Positions 1 to 15,155 of a DNA stretch of 18,893 nt are shown here, piece by piece; position 1 is the stretch's first letter, and each line of letters begins with the position of its first letter. This DNA is from Candidatus Acetothermia bacterium (lineage in GTDB: Bacteria; Bipolaricaulota; Bipolaricaulia; M55B111). The notes beneath the pieces were generated by a model. That model made no database searches. It was given only the letters and a program-made list of their open reading frames with translations, and had not been told where the DNA came from. The position numbers and the translations under genes were made by a program. Location: contig JBKGZT010000025.1 in NCBI GenBank assembly GCA_046543235.1, positions 1 through 18,893 on the forward strand. Reading direction: 5' to 3'.

Positions 1-83
1 ACAGTTGAAATTGGGAGCCCTTTTAGGGATGCTGGGTCTTTTTTTGTAAAAGAACAAGGTCTGCCGTTAAAGCTGTTTTTCTA

Positions 84-115
84 CAAGCCCCGTCCCTTGG
101 GGCGGGGTTCTTGAC
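84..115 (+). mobile_element. Putative IS200/IS605-family right end (subterminal hairpin); the element would extend left out of the window
   Basis: CAAGCCCCGTCCCTTGGGGCGGGGTTCTTGAC is a GC-rich imperfect hairpin (CCCCGTCC / GGGCGGGG) ending in TTGAC. It resembles the AAGCCCCG..CGGGG..TTGAC ends of tnpB/iscB elements. No transposase or nuclease gene is in the window. Confidence 0.65.
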
Positions 116-195
116 ACAGTTGCTTCTACACTATCTCGAAAACCCCGGCTATCGTCTATTTTAAAAACTTCCCTGCCCTAAGGTTTCTTGAGATC

Positions 196-248
196 CAATT
201 TTTAACGCCAAAAATCATATGGTGATTTATGATGGCGTAAGAATTGAG
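196..248. repeat. Imperfect palindrome; diverged member of the intergenic repeat family
   Basis: CAATTTTTAACGCCA (196-210) pairs with TGGCGTAAGAATTG (233-246), with inner stem AAATCAT/GTGATTT. Positions 231-248 (GATGGCGTAAGAATTGAG) match 14121-14138 (GATGGTGAAAGAACTGAG) at 15/18. Confidence 0.5.
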
Positions 249-10252: not shown

Positions 10253-11643
10253 GGTTTAACCGCCTTCATTATCATCCCTTCTTCCGTTGTTTGATCTATC
10301 TTGTACCGCTCGTTCAGCCGATGCCCGACGACCCAGATGATCCCCCTTCTGTCACATACGAGCGGGATTTCCCCCCTTTTTTCATAGGGTACTTTGGCAT
10401 CTATGAAGTAGTCCTTTAATTTTTTCCTCCCCTCCATGCCCAGCGGGACCAGTCCGTCGCCGTTCCTTCTGTTTCTGACTGAGAGCGGTTGTTCAACCTT
10501 ACCCCAATCAACGATCTCGGTCAAATTATCCCTCGAAAAACCCCTAGGGTTCAAAGCCCCGGGATCGGACGTAAGCTCGAACCGGAGCTTCAGGTCCGCT
10601 TCGACGACTTTCACTTCCTCTCCGGGTTCTACCCGATAACTATAATCCTCGGTCTCCCCAGGGGAATAATCCTTTACGAAACAGCCATAATCCCGCCTTA
10701 AAACGAATGTGATCCCGGGAAGGTCGATCCTGGTGCGGGCCGGGCGTTCCTCCACTTTGTCTAATACCTTCTTAACGTGGTCCAGGCCAATGTCCTTCAA
10801 GTCCCCCTTCTCTCTTTTCATCAGGTCCCTCGATACCGCCTTTTTCATGTAAGGACTAAGCTCTGAGAGTTTTTCAGTGTCGAAGCAGGTCCCGCTATCT
10901 GATTTTCTCGTGAGGATTTTACGGGCTGATTTTTTAGTGTTTTTTTTCAGGTAGGATCTAGCTTCCCGTATCAGGCTTCCCGTTTCGGCTAGTCTCTCCT
11001 TAATATTTGGATTGTATTTGTCCTCGAGTTCGGGGATCAATTCGTGCCTTATTCTGTTGCGGGTGTAACGTGTATTCCTGTTTGTCTCGTCCTTTCGGTA
11101 GTCCAGATCTCTGGATCGGGCGTAGTCCTCGATTTCCTTTCTCCCTGTTCTCAATAGCGGCCGGATAAAGAGGTCGCGAACTTCTTCCATTCCGCCGAGA
11201 CCCCTTAACCCCGTCCCCCGGATGATGTGCATGAGAATAGTCTCGGCCTGGTCGTCTCTGTTGTGGCCGAGGGCGACGTAATCCGCGGATAGTTCTTCGG
11301 CGGCACTTGAGAGGAACTCGTACCTGACCTTTCTGGCTGCCTCTTCCAGGGAAAGCCCTTTTTCTTCTGCCAATTCTTTCGCGGACCTCGAAGCGACGAT
11401 CGAATCCAGGTCGAATTCCTGGGCCGTTGACCTTACGAACTCCGCGTCTTTGGTCGCGTCTTCTCCGCGGATTCCGTGGTCGAGATGGGCCACGGAGAGC
11501 TCCAGGTCGAAATCTTCCCTTTCCTCGAGCAATACGTGGAGGAGAGACAGCGAATCGACCCCGCCCGATACGGCTACCAGCACTCCACATTCTTTAATCG
11601 AGTGTTCCGTCAGGAACTCCCTGACGGCAGGTACTATTTTCAT
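10249..11643 (-). CDS. tilS: tRNA(Ile)-lysidine synthetase
   Basis: AVSGGVDS PP-loop, HLDHGIR, EEAARKVRYEFL, GHNRDDQAET, IRPLL, RNRIRH, and a TilS C-terminal domain (KKLKDYFID.KVP). Start set to ATG 11643. Confidence 0.95.
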   Translation of the reverse strand: MKIVPAVREFLTEHSIKECGVLVAVSGGVDSLSLLHVLLEEREDFDLELSVAHLDHGIRGEDATKDAEFVRSTAQEFDLDSIVASRSAKELAEEKGLSLEEAARKVRYEFLSSAAEELSADYVALGHNRDDQAETILMHIIRGTGLRGLGGMEEVRDLFIRPLLRTGRKEIEDYARSRDLDYRKDETNRNTRYTRNRIRHELIPELEDKYNPNIKERLAETGSLIREARSYLKKNTKKSARKILTRKSDSGTCFDTEKLSELSPYMKKAVSRDLMKREKGDLKDIGLDHVKKVLDKVEERPARTRIDLPGITFVLRRDYGCFVKDYSPGETEDYSYRVEPGEEVKVVEADLKLRFELTSDPGALNPRGFSRDNLTEIVDWGKVEQPLSVRNRRNGDGLVPLGMEGRKKLKDYFIDAKVPYEKRGEIPLVCDRRGIIWVVGHRLNERYKIDQTTEEGMIMKAVKP

Positions 11644-11652
11644 TATCAAAAA

Positions 11653-11681
11653 ATTATAGCTACCTGGGACTGTCAGAACAA
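11653..11681 (-). promoter_or_regulatory. Sigma70-like promoter for tilS-rseP, near-leaderless
   Basis: Minus strand reads TTGTTC (11681-11676), 17 nt, TATAAT (11658-11653), 9 nt, ATG. No SD. Confidence 0.65.
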
Positions 11682-11736
11682 TCTGTAACGGGATTTAACG
11701 GAAAGGGCCAGCCCCTGCTCCGCAAAGAGTAGTTAT

Positions 11737-11793
11737 CTCTTAGCCGGTCCGACCAGCGGTCAAGTTCGGGTTAACGGTGGTGAAAGAGTTGAG
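11737..11793 (+). repeat. Intergenic palindromic repeat, copy A
   Basis: CTCTTAGCCG-GTCCGACCAGCGGTCAAGTTCGGGTTAAC-GGTGGTGAAAGAGTTGAG. Aligns along its length with 14081-14138. Confidence 0.75.
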
Positions 11794-11859
11794 CCAAAGA
11801 TATTTTGTTCCCTGTATTCCGGGGAGATTGGTCCCGCGCGAGAGAATCGCCCGACCCGG

Positions 11860-11888
11860 TTGGAGTTGGGGGCGGTTTCTTATATACT
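11860..11888 (+). promoter_or_regulatory. Possible sigma70 promoter for the racemase-like gene
   Basis: TTGGAG (11860-11865), 17 nt, TATACT (11883-11888). Confidence 0.45.
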
Positions 11889-11953
11889 GAAGGGAGTTTC
11901 TTGATGCCGCTGTAACCAGAAGACGGAAAATTTACCCGGATGGTGATTGGGGG

Positions 11954-12904
11954 ATGGACGGACCGGTACCATTTGTCAAGGGACATATGGGGGGGAACGA
12001 GATAGTACTCGTCAACCGGGAGTATTTGCCGGAGAGCGGGGAGTTAGAACTTGGGTTGAGAATACTTAATGCCCCGCACGTCCGCGGCGACCAGCTGGGT
12101 CTAATCCACGAGGGCGACGACCGGGATGGCGGGATCGGCGTAAAAATCATCGACAACAATTCCCGTGACTACCTGCCGGTCTGCGGGGGTTTGACTCAGG
12201 TCTTTGGTAGGGCTTATAGCGACCTTCAACTTGGTAGAGTCCTCGATATCGAATTACCCGGCGGGCTGGAGGAGGTAGATCTCGAAATGGAGCTGGGAAC
12301 CTTCCCTGTATCGATACGGAGTGGCTCCGGTTTGGGAAACGTCGTTTCGGTTATGGATTCCTTTCTCGATAAGATATATGAGGATGGAGTGGAGCAAGGA
12401 TCGGTGGCCGGCGTCAGAAGTTTTCGGGTCGGCCATTTTTTCGTCACTTTTGCGGAGGAGATAAGCCGGGAGTACCCGGATGCGAACTTTCACCCCCTCG
12501 ACGAATACACGAAAGGACTTCTGATCAACTTACAGCGGGAGTACAGGGAGGTATTCCATACCGGAAAACCAAATAGGGACTTCGCCATCGTGGATCCGTC
12601 GAAGGAGGGTGGAATGGATGGAGGTTTGATCTTCCCCCATGATCCCTCACGCGGGTTGATCGAACAGTCCTGTGGTTCGGGGACCGTCGCAGTTGTCGTG
12701 GCATTGGCGGAGAGTGGAGAGGTTTCTGGTTCCGGAACGGGGGAACTCGAATTCGCCTCGGGAGGCGAAAAGGAAGTGCTCGGTGGACCGGAATCGACCC
12801 GCGTGGAATTCCAGCTGACCGGCGGAAGGGTGGAAAGCATCAGCTTCACCCATAGCCTGGTTGAAGTACTGGCCCGAGGAGAACTCTTTTTACCCGAGCG
12901 TTAG
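11954..12904 (+). CDS. DapF/proline-racemase-fold, PLP-independent amino-acid racemase/epimerase (CntK-like)
   Basis: N-terminal FVKGHMGGNEIVLV. Two catalytic-type Cys motifs, PVCGGLT and EQSCGSGTVA. C-terminal VEVLARGELFL strand typical of the fold. Confidence 0.72.
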   Translation: MDGPVPFVKGHMGGNEIVLVNREYLPESGELELGLRILNAPHVRGDQLGLIHEGDDRDGGIGVKIIDNNSRDYLPVCGGLTQVFGRAYSDLQLGRVLDIELPGGLEEVDLEMELGTFPVSIRSGSGLGNVVSVMDSFLDKIYEDGVEQGSVAGVRSFRVGHFFVTFAEEISREYPDANFHPLDEYTKGLLINLQREYREVFHTGKPNRDFAIVDPSKEGGMDGGLIFPHDPSRGLIEQSCGSGTVAVVVALAESGEVSGSGTGELEFASGGEKEVLGGPESTRVEFQLTGGRVESISFTHSLVEVLARGELFLPER

Positions 12905-13858
12905 CGCCCAGGCTATGGCTCCTGAGAGAACGTTGTCCTCGTCAAGAGGCGTGATCAGGATTTCCGGCACCTCGTTCTGGGTGTGGTCACTGATCCGTTC
13001 TTTAATTGGGTTTAACACGAGTTCCGGGTTATTGAGAGCAACTCCTCCCCCGACCGTTATTAACTCCGGGTCGTAAGCTTCCGTGACGGTAGCGAAACCA
13101 ATGGCGTTTAACCTGCCCATCTCCTCTACCAGTTCCAGGGCGACTTCGTCACCCTCTTTGGCCAGGTCGAACAGGTCCTTTGGCCGGAAGTCTTCGAAAC
13201 TCCCAGGGGTGTATTTCTCGAGCTTGCTGTCCCCCTTCTGGAGATTTTTTTCTTCCAGTTTCATTTCGACGAAGCTGGGGATATTTGATCCCGAACAGTA
13301 AGCTTCCCAGTGTCCGCGGCGCCCGCAACCGCAGATCTGGTCACCTTTCTCGTCGATGGTAAAGTGTCCTATTTCGGCGGCGTTACCGTTTTTGCCGATC
13401 AGCAGGTTGCCGTCGACGATGACTCCGCCGCCGATCCCGGTACTTATGGTTACATAGACGATGTTCTCGTAATCCTGGCCCGCCCCGTACTTGCTCTCCG
13501 CCAGAACGGCCGAAACGCCGTCGTTGATGAGCTCCACCTCCGTATCGAATTCCCGTTCCAGGGGGTCGGCCAGCGGTACGATCTCCAGAGGTATGTTTGA
13601 AGGGTTGGTCAATTCACCTTCCTTTCGGTTCATCGGACCGGCCGAAGCTATACCAATTCCGACAAGCTCCTTCCGGGAACGACCCGTCTGCTTGCAGAGT
13701 TGGCTGCCAAGGCGGCTGATCTGACGGCTCACACCTAATTCGTCCGACGTTTGTATTTTTTCTTTTTCTCTCGCGAGGATATTTCCTTGGGTGTCGGCAA
13801 GAGCGACTCTGACCCAGGTGGCTCCTATATCAACTCCAAGCGCGTGTTCTTGCTTCAT
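12890..13858 (-). CDS. ROK-family sugar kinase (glucokinase-like)
   Basis: GVDIGAT, IND, ISTGIGGG, EIGH, CGCGRRGHWEAYCSG, VGGGV. No N-terminal HTH. SD AGGAGG. Convergent 15-nt overlap with the racemase-like gene. Confidence 0.92.
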   Translation of the reverse strand: MKQEHALGVDIGATWVRVALADTQGNILAREKEKIQTSDELGVSRQISRLGSQLCKQTGRSRKELVGIGIASAGPMNRKEGELTNPSNIPLEIVPLADPLEREFDTEVELINDGVSAVLAESKYGAGQDYENIVYVTISTGIGGGVIVDGNLLIGKNGNAAEIGHFTIDEKGDQICGCGRRGHWEAYCSGSNIPSFVEMKLEEKNLQKGDSKLEKYTPGSFEDFRPKDLFDLAKEGDEVALELVEEMGRLNAIGFATVTEAYDPELITVGGGVALNNPELVLNPIKERISDHTQNEVPEILITPLDEDNVLSGAIAWALTLG

Positions 13859-13965
13859 CTTCTCCTCCTGAGACTGGTGTTTTCGAATGTCGAACTCAGT
13901 TTAAGGCAAAACGGGAGTTTCTTAAACACCTTCCGGGGGGCAACGGCTTTCAAGGGGAAATGTAA

Positions 13966-14138
13966 CTCAGTTCTTTCACCTCTACCAACCTCATTTGAGT
14001 TGCCGGCTAAGTAAGCCCTGGAAAAGGTCCGGGTATGTCCGATCGAGCGTTAGCGAGGGAGTTCGAGGAACCGAGCCAGAGCTTTCTTAGCCGACCCGGG
14101 CGGTCATAGCCTGGATTGTCGATGGTGAAAGAACTGAG
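13966..14138. repeat. 173-nt element made of two inverted copies (C 13966-14016, B 14081-14138) of the intergenic repeat; MITE/BIME-like or structured RNA
   Basis: Perfect 15-bp terminal IR CTCAGTTCTTTCACC / GGTGAAAGAACTGAG. Second IR CGGCTAAGTAAGC (14004-14016) / GCTTTCTTAGCCG (14081-14093) at 12/13, continuing into CTGG/CCAG. Inner hairpin TCGAGC/GTTCGA. Confidence 0.8.
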
Positions 14139-14182
14139 ACCTAATTTCGATACCACCTCTTGGTTTCCCAATCTGTCGGTAG

Positions 14183-14211
14183 TTGTTACTCTCGTTACTG
14201 GAAGCTAAAAT
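14183..14211 (+). promoter_or_regulatory. Sigma70-like promoter for hydrolase-recF-dciA, leaderless-type
   Basis: TTGTTA (14183-14188), 17 nt, TAAAAT (14206-14211), 8 nt, ATG 14220. No SD. Confidence 0.65.
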
Positions 14212-14219
14212 TAAAAGTC

Positions 14220-15155
14220 ATGATGGGAAAGGTGAGCGGAGAGAAATTTTATTTTAACATGTTGCCCCTTTTAGTGTTGCTGGGCCTGCTTAGTACCGGC
14301 CAGGCACTGTATAGAATCAACGCGACCATAAACGGGCAGATTTACGATACCCCCGGCGGTGAGGTGGGGGAATTGACGCCCGGTGATTGGGGATTACCTT
14401 ACGAAGAAGTCTCGTTCAAGACGAACGACGACCTGACTATAGAAGGCTGGTTCGTTAATCGGAGGGATACCGACCGAGCGGTGATACTGGCACCGGGACG
14501 TGGAACCAATAGGTGGGACATACTTGAGAACGCACCAGTAGGTTATCTTCACGATCACGGTTTCGAGATACTTCTGTTTGATCCCCGGACGACAGGCCTG
14601 AGCGAAGGCGATATGTACGGGTTCGGTTACTTTGAGAGTCAGGATATAGTCAACGCCGTCAGGTTTTTGAAGGAGGAGAAAGGGGTAAAAAAAGTTGGGG
14701 TCTGGGGTGGTTCGGCAGGAGCGTCCGCGGCCATCATGGCCAGCCTGGAATCCGACGAGATAGGTGCAGTTGTAGCGGATAGTCCTTACGCCAATTTGCG
14801 GATGGCCGCCACGAGTTACGGTGAGAACAAGAACGACGCCCTGATGCAGGCGTTTTTCCCTTTTTACATGGGGGTTGCCAGGTTCACCCTCAACTTCGAC
14901 ATTTCCCAGAAGACAAACCTGGTGGAGAGGGTCAGGGACCTCGAAACTCCGCTTTTTCTAATACACGGCCTGGAGGATCGGGCACTGAAGCCCGAAAACT
15001 CTCAGTTGCTGTACGAAAACGCCGGAGGGTCAAAACGAATTTGGCTTGCCGAAGGTGCCTGGCACGTTGGTGCCCACGAACTGTATCCGGAGAGGTACCA
15101 GGAAGACGTAACCGAGTTTTTTGATAGCTATCTTGATAGGGGCAGGGGAAGCTAA
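14220..15155 (+). CDS. Membrane-anchored/exported alpha/beta-fold hydrolase
   Basis: N-terminal hydrophobic segment, EEVSFKT.D.LTIEGWF, FDPRTTGLSEG, nucleophile elbow GGSAG, VADSPY, IHGLED, AWH. Start moved to ATG 14220. Confidence 0.85.
   Translation: MMGKVSGEKFYFNMLPLLVLLGLLSTGQALYRINATINGQIYDTPGGEVGELTPGDWGLPYEEVSFKTNDDLTIEGWFVNRRDTDRAVILAPGRGTNRWDILENAPVGYLHDHGFEILLFDPRTTGLSEGDMYGFGYFESQDIVNAVRFLKEEKGVKKVGVWGGSAGASAAIMASLESDEIGAVVADSPYANLRMAATSYGENKNDALMQAFFPFYMGVARFTLNFDISQKTNLVERVRDLETPLFLIHGLEDRALKPENSQLLYENAGGSKRIWLAEGAWHVGAHELYPERYQEDVTEFFDSYLDRGRGS

What the first reader, a model, noticed from the sequence alone, without database searches (positions are those of the whole stretch)
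11737..11793. Unrecognised dispersed palindromic repeat family with fixed asymmetric arms and a variable central hairpin
Seen: copy A (11737-11793, +), copy B (14081-14138, +) and copy C (13966-14016, -) all read CTTAGCCG-[variable]-GGTGAAAGARYTGAG. A and B also share GCGGTCA internally. The interiors differ but each folds (A GTCCGA/TCGGGT; B CCGGGC/GCCTGG; C CTCA/TGAG). The arms pair imperfectly with each other, with a compensatory change (A CTCTT/AAGAG, B TTCTT/AAGAA). All three sit in spacers between divergent genes. I do not recognise it as a REP (no GTAG foot), attC, CRISPR repeat or known riboswitch. Inference: conserved mismatched arms around a variable loop suggest a folded ssDNA/RNA substrate for a recombinase, HUH nuclease or RNA-binding protein. 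Three to four copies in 19 kb would imply an abundant genome-wide element.
Basis: partly seen in the sequence, partly recalled or inferred. Interest (0 to 1): 0.75.

Follow-up and report, generated by a model that had tools for sequence, protein, structure and literature searches.

The report
Miniature transposons of an IS701-like element
The repeats are copies of a small gene-less jumping element (a MITE) that shares its ends with an IS701-like insertion sequence found in related bacteria, which makes it an ordinary kind of selfish DNA and not a new folded RNA or single-strand recombination site.

Summary
Copies C and B are the two ends of one 173-bp element (13966-14138). Its ends are a perfect 15-bp terminal inverted repeat, CTCAGTTCTTTCACC / GGTGAAAGAACTGAG. 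Copy A (11737-11793) is a solo right end.

The family is abundant, with 62 loci in this 1.32-Mb, 87%-complete MAG. It is almost always intergenic and has no orientation bias towards gene starts.

Elements with two ends carry 5-bp target-site duplications: 11 of 21 are perfect, against 2 of 420 for permuted partners.

The same 15-bp ends bound a 1,120-bp insertion sequence in a sister genus. It encodes a DDE transposase whose best profile hits are IS701-family models. Copy A is the best match in this genome to that IS's right end.

The terminal motif occurs in 12 of 14 other genomes of the same taxonomic family and in 0 of 46 from other families of the class.

Orthologous spacers in same-genus relatives lack the elements.

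Verdict: a MITE family mobilised in trans by an IS701-like (ISAba11-like) transposase. It is a new member of a known kind. This scan has already reported IS701-type MITEs on other DNA (Patescibacteria, Saccharibacteria, Poribacteria). One curiosity is that the central core is found in both orientations.

The parts
13966..14138 (.). Complete long-form MITE (173 bp) in the spacer between the divergent ROK-kinase and alpha/beta-hydrolase genes.
   Evidence: Perfect 15-bp TIR. Full-length relatives at 60-77% identity on 8 other contigs. Aligned. Its flanks TGTAA / ACCTA are not a duplication.
13966..13980 (-). Left terminal inverted repeat, CTCAGTTCTTTCACC on the + strand
   Evidence: 12 of the 15 positions are invariant across 18 IS and MITE ends.
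13966..14021 (-). L-type end module (TIR, subterminal part, inner inverted repeat CCAGGGCTTACTTAGCCG)
   Evidence: nhmmer L-end profile, E=2e-13. It resembles the IS left end.
14022..14075 (.). Asymmetric central core between the inner inverted repeats. It is found in either orientation in other copies.
14076..14138 (+). R-type end module (inner inverted repeat CCAGAGCTTTCTTAGCCG, subterminal part, TIR GGTGAAAGAACTGAG at 14124-14138)
   Evidence: nhmmer E=4e-17. CM R1 scores 58.5 bits.
11737..11793 (+). No left partner was recognised upstream.
   Evidence: CM R1 hit at 11736-11793, E=3.4e-11. 11767-11793 is the only BLASTN match of the sister-genus IS in this genome (24 of 27 bases, to the IS right end). 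The four usable relatives' tilS spacers have no counterpart of it (part of G005's spacer is withheld).
1..248 (+). Possible end of another element with a degenerate TIR (GGCGTAAGAATTGAG, 234-248) that runs off the contig start. Membership is uncertain.
   Evidence: A 2-mismatch hit. It shares ACACAGTTGCTTNTACACTATC with the contig-end copy on C88. 39-114 is a high-depth repeat at which metagenome contigs break.
14183..14211 (+). Host promoter of the hydrolase gene (TTGTTA-17-TAAAAT). It lies outside the element and is left intact by it.
   Evidence: The only promoter-like site in 11600-14300. Conserved in all 8 aligned same-genus spacers, G000 included.

Best explanation
The repeats are non-autonomous miniature inverted-repeat transposable elements (MITEs). 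Each complete element is a stretch of double-stranded DNA of 56-173 bp. It is bounded by a 15-bp terminal inverted repeat (CTCARWTCTTTCACC ... GGTGAAAGAWYTGAG) plus about 10 bp of subterminal sequence. These ends derive from the left and right ends of a 1.1-kb IS701-like insertion sequence. A DDE transposase supplied in trans binds the two ends, excises or copies the element, and inserts it at a 5-bp staggered cut. Repair of the cut leaves a 5-bp direct repeat.

In the window, 13966-14138 is one full long-form copy. It landed in the dispensable gap between two divergent host promoters. 11737-11793 is a one-ended remnant.

Shown here: the repeat family, the TIRs, the 5-bp duplications, the shared ends with a transposase-bearing IS in sister genera, the restriction to one taxonomic family, and the absence from orthologous spacers.

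Inferred: that this transposase is the mobilising enzyme, and that mobilisation in this genome depended on an IS copy that is now lost or was not assembled.
For: 1. Anatomy. C and B are the ends of one 173-bp element with a perfect 15-bp TIR. Nine long-form copies (158-173 bp taken), one of them cut short at its right end, align end to end. Short forms of 56-84 bp lack the centre.

2. Abundance and placement. There are 62 loci in 1.32 Mb, and 30 of them carry family-1 modules. Of 84 motif hits, 63 are intergenic in a genome that is 89% ORF-covered. Fifteen of the 62 loci lie within 300 nt of a contig end, against 4.4% of the genome, so the assembly breaks at them.

3. Target-site duplication. 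Eleven of 21 two-TIR elements, in G000 and six related genomes, have a perfect 5-bp direct repeat. Permuted partners give 2 of 420. No element has a 6-bp repeat, and no pair matches at flank positions 6-10.

4. Parent IS.
- G015:C108:87-1206 is 1,120 bp and is bounded by CTCAGCTCTTTCACC and GGTGAAAGAGTTGAG.
- A second copy, G015:C74, has the left TIR followed by an ORF of 328-342 aa that is open to the contig end.
- A third copy lies in G018.
- The protein matches Pfam DDE_5 (5.4e-12, above the cut-off). Its best NCBIfam hits are the IS701-family models NF049999 (7.7e-31) and NF033540 (1.4e-28).
- It is 25-28% identical over 85-99% of its length to plasmid genes, some of which are annotated as IS701 family transposase.

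5. Shared ends. Twelve of 15 terminal positions are invariant across 4 IS ends and 14 MITE ends. L-type MITE ends continue like the IS left end, and R-type ends like the IS right end. The IS's only BLASTN hit in G000 is window copy A.

6. Distribution. The exact TIR pattern occurs in 12 of 14 other genomes of family f1 and in 0 of 46 genomes of nine other families of the class. The reversed control pattern gives 1 hit in all. Counts run up to 59 (G002) and 46 (G008).

7. Insertion. The orthologous rok-hyd spacers of 7 same-genus genomes lack the element. Four usable tilS spacers have no counterpart of copy A, one of them partly withheld.

8. Precedent. ISAba11 is placed in the IS701 family (PMC9771954, passages). 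It is 1,101 bp long (PMC7760358, passage) and makes 5-bp direct repeats, TATAG and ATTTA (PMC7885321, passages).
Against: - No transposase of this kind is present in the G000 assembly: tblastn finds nothing below E=1, and. It is also missing from G014 and G016, which both carry the MITEs. So mobilisation in this genome is inferred, not shown.
- The window's own full copy has no target duplication (TGTAA against ACCTA). The same is true of 10 of the 21 elements.
- G000 copies are only 60-77% identical to one another, so they may be old and immobile.
- Contigs from four metagenome runs that hold this genome show no empty-site allele at either locus.
- The transposase scores below NCBIfam's curated cut-offs (107 bits against 170).
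- The IS differs from classical IS701 in size, duplication length and end signature (PMC2266710, passages).
- Only one IS copy shows its right end. That copy carries an in-frame stop and has no flanking duplication.
Confidence: 0.9

Rival explanations
1. A REP/BIME-like palindromic repeat handled as folded single-stranded DNA by a RAYT or other HUH (Y1) enzyme.
For: The elements are intergenic, abundant, modular and mosaic, with hairpin-forming interiors. A second subfamily carries GNRA-loop hairpins with covarying stems.
Against: 5-bp target duplications of variable sequence flank the elements; from general knowledge, HUH elements make none. The conserved part is a double-strand TIR shared with a DDE-transposase IS. 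No Y1_Tnp (PF01797) match exists in the genome, while the control genomes do ring. No TnpB Zn-ribbon match either. The MAG is 87% complete, so absence is not proven.
Confidence: 0.02
2. A structured cis-regulatory RNA (leader or riboswitch) or a multi-copy small RNA transcribed from the spacers.
For: All three window sites point towards a downstream gene start. The interiors can form small hairpins (reader).
Against: 0 Rfam matches at E<=1. Genome-wide the motif faces gene starts 30 times and gene ends 28 times. RNAalifold gives 0 consensus pairs. The elements are absent from orthologous leaders in same-genus relatives, where the promoters are conserved. No promoter-like site lies inside the element.
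Confidence: 0.03
3. The elements are MITEs by origin but are now fixed and retained by the host for a function, such as a protein-binding site, a spacer insulator between divergent promoters, or an invertible core.
For: The ends are far better conserved than the interiors. Both window loci are fixed in four samples. The core occurs in both orientations in 14 scored copies and in an unrelated subfamily of G008.
Against: End conservation is expected from transposase selection alone. Placement shows no bias relative to genes. Same-genus species do without the elements at the same sites. No binding protein or recombinase was identified.
Confidence: 0.05

Closest known systems
MITEs derived from IS701-family insertion sequences, with ISAba11 of Acinetobacter as the named autonomous comparator
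   Same: A DDE transposase with DDE_5 / IS701-family profile hits. The IS is 1,120 bp against 1,101 bp for ISAba11 (PMC7760358 passage). Both make 5-bp AT-rich direct repeats; TATAG and ATTTA occur here and for ISAba11 (PMC7885321 passages). Both have short TIRs. Non-coding derivatives keep only the ends.
   Different: The transposase is only distantly related. The best plasmid-borne relatives are 25-28% identical, from Deinococcus and cyanobacteria, and Acinetobacter is not among the ten most frequent genera named. It scores below NCBIfam's curated cut-offs. The host lineage is Ca. Acetothermia/Bipolaricaulota. I did not compare the TIR sequence with ISAba11's. ISfinder could not be queried.
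Classical IS701 family as defined by De Palmenaer et al. 2008 (PMC2266710, passages read)
   Same: It belongs to the IS4-related 'emerging' DDE families, which make duplications of about 5 bp. It has a single transposase ORF and TIRs.
   Different: That paper gives 1,400-1,550 bp, exactly 4-bp duplications and the end signature ---YACT-Y--YR. Here the IS is 1,120 bp, the duplication is 5 bp and the ends read CTCAATTCTTTCACC.
Correia elements (Neisseria) and other bacterial MITEs such as RUP and MITEAba12
   Same: They are about 100-200 bp, have TIRs, are intergenic and abundant, come in long and short (internally deleted) forms, and often sit next to promoters (recalled; MITEAba12 seen only as a search listing).
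   Different: The TIR sequence, the duplication length and the parent transposase family all differ. No promoter or IHF site was shown here.
REP/BIME elements with RAYT
   Same: A mosaic of modules in alternating orientation, intergenic and abundant.
   Different: REP/BIME elements have no TIR-plus-duplication signature and depend on an HUH enzyme (recalled). Here there are TIRs and 5-bp duplications and no Y1 transposase.

Membership tests
Bacterial MITE | Short non-coding element | tested here: met
   The elements are 56-173 bp in G000 and 84-313 bp in the relatives sampled, besides one 896-bp gene-less element with the same ends in G012. The only ORF of 80 aa or more that overlaps the window element (13751-14014, +, 87 aa) starts inside the opposite-strand rok gene and looks spurious.
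Bacterial MITE | Terminal inverted repeats | tested here: met
   The 15-bp TIR is perfect in the window copy. 12 of 15 positions are invariant over 18 ends.
Bacterial MITE | Target-site duplication of fixed length | tested here: met
   11 of 21 elements have a perfect 5-bp repeat; permuted partners give 2 of 420; no 6-bp repeats. The window copy itself lacks one.
Bacterial MITE | Many dispersed copies | tested here: met
   62 loci in 1.32 Mb, and up to 59 exact TIRs in a relative.
Bacterial MITE | Ends shared with an autonomous, transposase-encoding IS | tested here: met
   G015:C108:87-1206, G015:C74 and G018:C126. These lie in sister genera, not in G000.
Bacterial MITE | Presence/absence at orthologous sites | tested here: met
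   Absent from the rok-hyd spacer of 7 same-genus genomes. Four usable tilS spacers have no counterpart of copy A, one of them partly withheld. The flanks are too diverged to show an exact empty site. No empty allele appears in contigs of 4 runs.
IS701 family (parent IS) | Transposase homologous to IS701-family DDE transposases | tested here: inconclusive
   Pfam DDE_5 scores 46.3 bits, above the 27-bit cut-off. The best NCBIfam hits are IS701 models, but at 107 and 100 bits they are below the curated cut-offs of 170 and 150. tblastn gives 25-28% identity to genes that include 'IS701 family transposase'.
IS701 family (parent IS) | 4-bp duplication, 1,400-1,550 bp, ends ---YACT-Y--YR (De Palmenaer 2008, PMC2266710) | tested here: not met
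   5 bp, 1,120 bp, ends CTCAATTCTTTCACC. These values do match ISAba11, which is placed in IS701 (PMC9771954) and has 1,101 bp and 5-bp repeats (PMC7760358, PMC7885321).
IS701 family (parent IS) | DDE catalytic triad without the YREK motif | not tested
   I made no residue-level alignment to characterised members.
REP/BIME with RAYT | A Y1 (HUH) transposase gene in the genome, and no target duplication | tested here: not met
   No PF01797 match (MAG 87% complete). 5-bp duplications are present.
IS200/IS605 PATE | No TIR, no duplication, a fixed target tetra/pentamer, TnpA/TnpB relatives | tested here: not met
   TIRs are present, and the duplications vary in sequence. No PF01797 or PF07282 match. 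The IS200/IS605-type relic reported upstream of rho in this genome is a different sequence.
Rfam cis-regulatory RNA or riboswitch | A match to a curated covariance model, or conserved structure with covariation, in sense orientation upstream of genes | tested here: not met
   0 Rfam matches. 0 consensus pairs. No excess covariation. 30 gene starts against 28 gene ends.
Integron attC | Arrays of cassettes next to intI, with R''/L''...L'/R' core sites | not tested
   The copies are dispersed singly between housekeeping genes. I did not search for an integrase.

The most novel reading that the evidence does not exclude
The central core of these MITEs may be a recurrently inverting ('flip-flop') segment. 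In G000, 8 of 14 right ends abut one arm of the core and 6 abut the other. A G008 subfamily with an unrelated core shows the same exact inversion between near-identical copies. If the inversion recurs at individual loci, this MITE superfamily would pass through, or be acted on by, a hairpin/cruciform or template-switch step, or by a dedicated invertase. That has not been described for IS701-type elements. It could also toggle whatever the core binds or encodes.
Probability: 0.08. Interest if true: 0.5.

Novelty: new member of a known kind. Interest (0 to 1): 0.2.

Why it matters
The main value is for annotation. About 60 intergenic loci in this genome, and up to about 90 terminal-repeat matches (two per complete element) in one relative, can be masked as MITEs. 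That stops them being mistaken for riboswitches, small RNAs or recombination sites. The family also explains many of the contig breaks in these Ca. Acetothermia/Bipolaricaulota MAGs.

It documents an IS701-like insertion sequence and its miniature derivatives in a little-studied, uncultured lineage from hypersaline mats. My two searches found no paper that describes MITEs in this phylum.

The family-restricted distribution, with very uneven copy numbers (0 to 59 exact ends per genome), gives a marker for recent transposon bursts in these populations.

Tried and rejected
- **Rfam.** Scans of the window and of seven other loci gave nothing relevant. The one weak hit, STnc380 at E=0.009 and half the gathering score, is a terminator-like hairpin.
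- **Strict pattern in relatives.** It was too strict and was replaced by a sequence-only CM and a TIR-only pattern.
- **Slow regex.** A fuzzy regex with 12 errors timed out and was replaced by nhmmer.
- **C13:8227-10032.** I suspected this 1.8-kb stretch between inverted TIRs was the parent IS. It holds an ordinary minus-strand gene that my crude ORF caller missed. Rejected.
- **Collection scans for the TIR.** The genome-contig scan gave four matches in one Ca. Acetothermia MAG plus 9 singletons that look like chance. The metagenome-contig scan gave 11 singletons with none of the family's subterminal sequence. Neither led to a parent IS.
- **Transposase families in G000.** PF01797, PF01609 and PF07282 gave no matches.
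- **Earlier-scan note.** The IS200/IS605 relic reported upstream of rho is a different sequence, with no BLAST similarity to this family.
- **Reads.** Contigs of four runs show no joint across either MITE locus and no strand-changing joint in the core. Contigs drop rare variants, so this is not evidence against polymorphism.
- **G012 element.** The 896-bp element with the same TIRs has no transposase similarity. It is not an intermediate deletion derivative.
- **Papers.** Moffatt 2011 (PMC3101452) is not held, so the original ISAba11 description was not read.

Full report
**Observation**

The three stretches exist as described.
- GGTGAAAGARYTGAG occurs exactly at 11779-11793 (+), 14124-14138 (+) and 13966-13980 (-).
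- A fourth, 2-mismatch site lies at 234-248.
- Shuffles give 0.18 matches expected, and 0 of 200 reach four.
- The 5' word alone is not above chance.

The surrounding genes are ordinary chromosome genes: YchF, a peptide ABC importer, NadE, RseP, TilS, a 316-aa ORF with no Pfam match, a ROK kinase, an alpha/beta hydrolase, RecF, DciA and HslVU.

**Re-parsing the copies**

Copies C (minus strand) and B (plus strand) lie 65 bp apart and face outwards. Together they bound one 173-bp element, 13966-14138. Its termini are a perfect 15-bp inverted repeat, CTCAGTTCTTTCACC ... GGTGAAAGAACTGAG.

BLAST of this element against the window's own genome finds full-length relatives on eight other contigs at 60-77% identity, plus many partial ones. 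That genome is G000, with 97 contigs, 1.32 Mb and 87% completeness.

An alignment of nine long-form copies, one of them cut short at its right end, shows the layout:
- an L-type end, made of the TIR, TCTACCAA..TTGATTGCCGG, and an inner inverted repeat;
- an asymmetric core of about 54 nt;
- an R-type end, made of the inner inverted repeat CCAGAGCTTTCTTAGCCG, a variable stretch, GGATTAAC, and the TIR.

Short forms of 56-84 bp lack the core. Copy A (11737-11793) is an R-type end with no recognisable left partner.

**Census and placement**

- Profile searches give 30 R-end and 23 L-end hits.
- The 15-mer with at most 2 mismatches gives 84 hits. Of these, 63 are intergenic, although a crude ORF call covers 89% of the genome.
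- Merged, these make 62 loci. Thirty carry family-1 modules. Thirty-two carry only the terminal motif, and these are other subfamilies or chance.
- The motif faces a gene start 30 times and a gene end 28 times. The window's pattern of pointing at genes is therefore an accident of two divergent spacers.
- Fifteen of the 62 loci lie within 300 nt of a contig end, against 4.4% of the genome. The assembly breaks at these repeats, and the count is a lower bound.

**Testing the folded-strand idea**

- Rfam gives no match at E<=1.
- RNAalifold on 22 aligned R-ends predicts no pair.
They pair in 63.3% of cells against 63.4% in shuffles. The covariation score is 0.161 against 0.162, and 255 of 500 shuffles reach it.
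- The one C-G in place of U-A at the outer arm pair is window copy A alone, 1 of 22 sequences.

**Mobility signature**

I took every element with two TIRs (at most 2 mismatches each) in G000 and in loci fetched from six related genomes.
- Eleven of 21 have a perfect 5-bp direct repeat immediately outside the TIRs. Examples are ACCAT, TCCAA, CTTCA, ATGAT, TTAAA, TCGAT, TTGAT, AAAAA, TAAAA, ATTTA and TTAGG.
- Two more match at 4 of 5 positions.
- Permuted partners give 2 of 420.
- No element has a 6-bp repeat, and the next five flanking bases never match.
- By eye, three further G000 copies with slightly damaged TIRs also have duplications: TATAG and TTTCA, and 4 of 5 for C68.
- The window's own copy has none (TGTAA / ACCTA).

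Duplications of fixed length but variable sequence indicate staggered cleavage by a DDE-type transposase. They argue against HUH (REP/RAYT, IS200/IS605) mechanisms. No PF01797 or PF07282 match exists in G000.

**The parent IS**

G000 has no DDE_Tnp_1 match. A scan of the 19 genomes of the taxonomic family found six matches to that profile in four genomes. Two of them, both in G015 (a sister genus), are flanked by the exact terminal motif.
- G015:C108:87-1206 is a 1,120-bp unit. It is bounded by CTCAGCTCTTTCACC and GGTGAAAGAGTTGAG, and its transposase frame carries one in-frame TAA.
- G015:C74 has the left TIR at 216-230, followed by an ORF of 328-342 aa that is open to the contig end.
- G018:C126 holds a third copy, 85% identical, with the TIR 87 nt upstream of the ORF.

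The protein was compared in three ways.
- It matches Pfam DDE_5 (5.4e-12), DDE_Tnp_2 and DDE_Tnp_1.
- Its best NCBIfam hits are the IS701-family models NF049999 (7.7e-31) and NF033540 (1.4e-28), both below their curated cut-offs.
- By tblastn it is 25-28% identical over 85-99% of its length to genes on Deinococcus and cyanobacterial plasmids, some annotated as IS701 family transposase.

An alignment of four IS ends with 14 MITE ends has 12 of 15 terminal positions invariant. L-type MITE ends continue like the IS left end (CACC-T.TA..AA). R-type ends continue like the IS right end (CACC-ACC.T.AA.CC). The only BLASTN hit of the IS in G000 is window copy A, 11767-11793, at 24 of 27 bases to the IS right end. 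In G015 itself, a 313-bp MITE with the duplication AAAAA has both ends matching the IS right end.

**Distribution**

- The exact pattern GGTGAAAGAWYTGAG occurs in 12 of 14 other genomes of family f1 (three genera). It occurs in 0 of 46 genomes from nine other families of the class. The reversed control pattern gives one hit overall.
- Counts are very uneven: G002 59, G008 46, G000 14, G012 10, G014 9, G005 7, and 0-5 in the others. With one mismatch allowed, G008 has 87 and G014 has 31.
- The R-end model built from G000 finds 27 hits in G000, 4 in G016, 1 in G014 and none in the 38 other relatives.
- G008, G002, G014 and G015 carry about 180-310-bp MITEs with the same ends but different interiors.
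- So the ends are the constant feature and the interiors are lineage-specific. This is what is expected if the transposase recognises the ends.
- The transposase itself was found only in G015, G018 and, as a fragment, G008. It was not found in G000, G014 or G016.
- A public record with four matches is titled 'MAG: Candidatus Acetothermia bacterium'. Four runs that hold the window are labelled hypersaline-lake or microbial-mat metagenomes.

**Orthologous sites**

Gene order tilS, 316-aa ORF, rok, hydrolase, recF is conserved in the genus.

In the rok-hyd spacer, all eight aligned genomes (G000 included) keep two blocks:
- one upstream of rok, CTCAGTTTAAGG..TTCTTAAAC;
- the hydrolase promoter, TTGTTA-17-TAAAAT (14183-14211).

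The 173-bp element sits in the variable gap between these blocks and has no counterpart in the seven relatives. Copy A likewise has no counterpart in the four usable tilS spacers, one of which is partly withheld. The relatives are different species, with 70-80% protein identity. The flanks are too diverged to read an exact empty site.

Contigs of four runs bridge both loci with the element present and show no empty-site joint. One run's contigs break inside the element, at 14065-14094. Short contigs from other copies share 14045-14095.

**Mechanism**

This is a MITE family mobilised in trans by an IS701-like DDE transposase that makes 5-bp staggered cuts.

Shown:
- the repeat family;
- the TIRs;
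- the duplications;
- the ends shared with a transposase-bearing IS;
- the family-restricted and patchy distribution;
- absence at orthologous sites.

Inferred:
- that this particular transposase is the mobiliser;
- that G000 once had, or still has unassembled, a copy of it.

The low identity among G000 copies and the missing duplications in half of them suggest that many are old.

**Comparison with what is known**

De Palmenaer et al. 2008 (PMC2266710, passages) give IS701 as 1,400-1,550 bp with exactly 4-bp duplications and a different end signature. The same paper says the IS4-related 'emerging' families make repeats of about five base pairs. ISAba11 is placed in the IS701 family (PMC9771954, passages). 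It occupies 1,101 bp (PMC7760358, passage) and makes 'characteristic' 5-bp repeats, TATAG and ATTTA (PMC7885321, passages).

The present IS (1,120 bp, 5-bp AT-rich repeats) therefore works like ISAba11. By sequence it is only a distant relative of named members.

My searches for MITEs or transposases in this phylum found five papers mentioning Acetothermia with transposase, none of which looked relevant from its title or abstract opening (listings only). They found none for Bipolaricaulota with 'miniature inverted-repeat'.

This scan's earlier notes report IS701-type MITEs in several other phyla (unchecked by me).

**Verdict**

The finding is real and abundant, and it is ordinary. It is a new member of a known kind. 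The one feature I cannot explain fully is that the core between the inner inverted repeats occurs in both orientations. Eight of 14 scored R-ends abut one arm and 6 the other, and an unrelated G008 subfamily shows the same exact inversion. Recombination or template switching between the inner repeats is the simplest reading.

Noticed in passing
window 14022-14075, and G000 copies on C7, C81, C68, C62, C54 against C10, C88, C60, C23, C26, C82, C91; also L101/L102 against L103 (G008): The core between the inner inverted repeats is exactly inverted in some copies relative to the asymmetric L and R ends. Eight R-ends abut arm Y and 6 abut arm X. A G008 MITE subfamily with an unrelated core shows the same flip between otherwise near-identical copies.
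   Followed up: partly
window 39-114: A 76-nt stretch is covered by contigs at depth 199-420 in four metagenome runs, against 31-56 for the rest of the window. Long contigs start at position 96. It is a separate multi-copy repeat and explains why the contig starts here.
   Followed up: no
G000:C13:8227-about 8400 (L059:327-500); G015:C125:4963-5275 (L109:64-376); also G000 C19, C23, C24, C59, C68: A second MITE subfamily has the same 15-bp end. It carries hairpins with a GGAA loop whose stems covary (GCGGGGCT/AGCCCCGC, GCGGCCCT/AGGGCCGC, GGGGGT/ACCCCC). The G015 copy has the duplication AAAAA.
   Followed up: partly
window 14183-14223: The hydrolase gene's conserved promoter (TTGTTA-17-TAAAAT) ends only about 9 nt before the conserved ATG at 14221. 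This suggests a leaderless or near-leaderless mRNA. The block is conserved in all eight same-genus genomes aligned (G000 included).
   Followed up: no
G012:C58:7851-8746 (L113:52-947): An 896-bp element has the same perfect TIRs and the duplication ATTTA, but no similarity to the transposase. It is a large non-autonomous element with unknown cargo.
   Followed up: partly
G000:C54:4953-5131: An element with R-type modules at both ends (R, core, R). This shows that ends and core assort as modules.
   Followed up: no
G015:C108:1192-1260 (L095): The transposase reading frame runs through the right TIR (encoding ...GGERVE...) and stops 54 nt into the flanking DNA. The protein's C-terminus may therefore depend on the insertion site. 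Only this one (pseudogene) copy shows the right end.
   Followed up: no
window 11954-12904: A 316-aa ORF has no Pfam match yet is conserved in synteny (47-66% identity) between tilS and rok across the genus.
   Followed up: no
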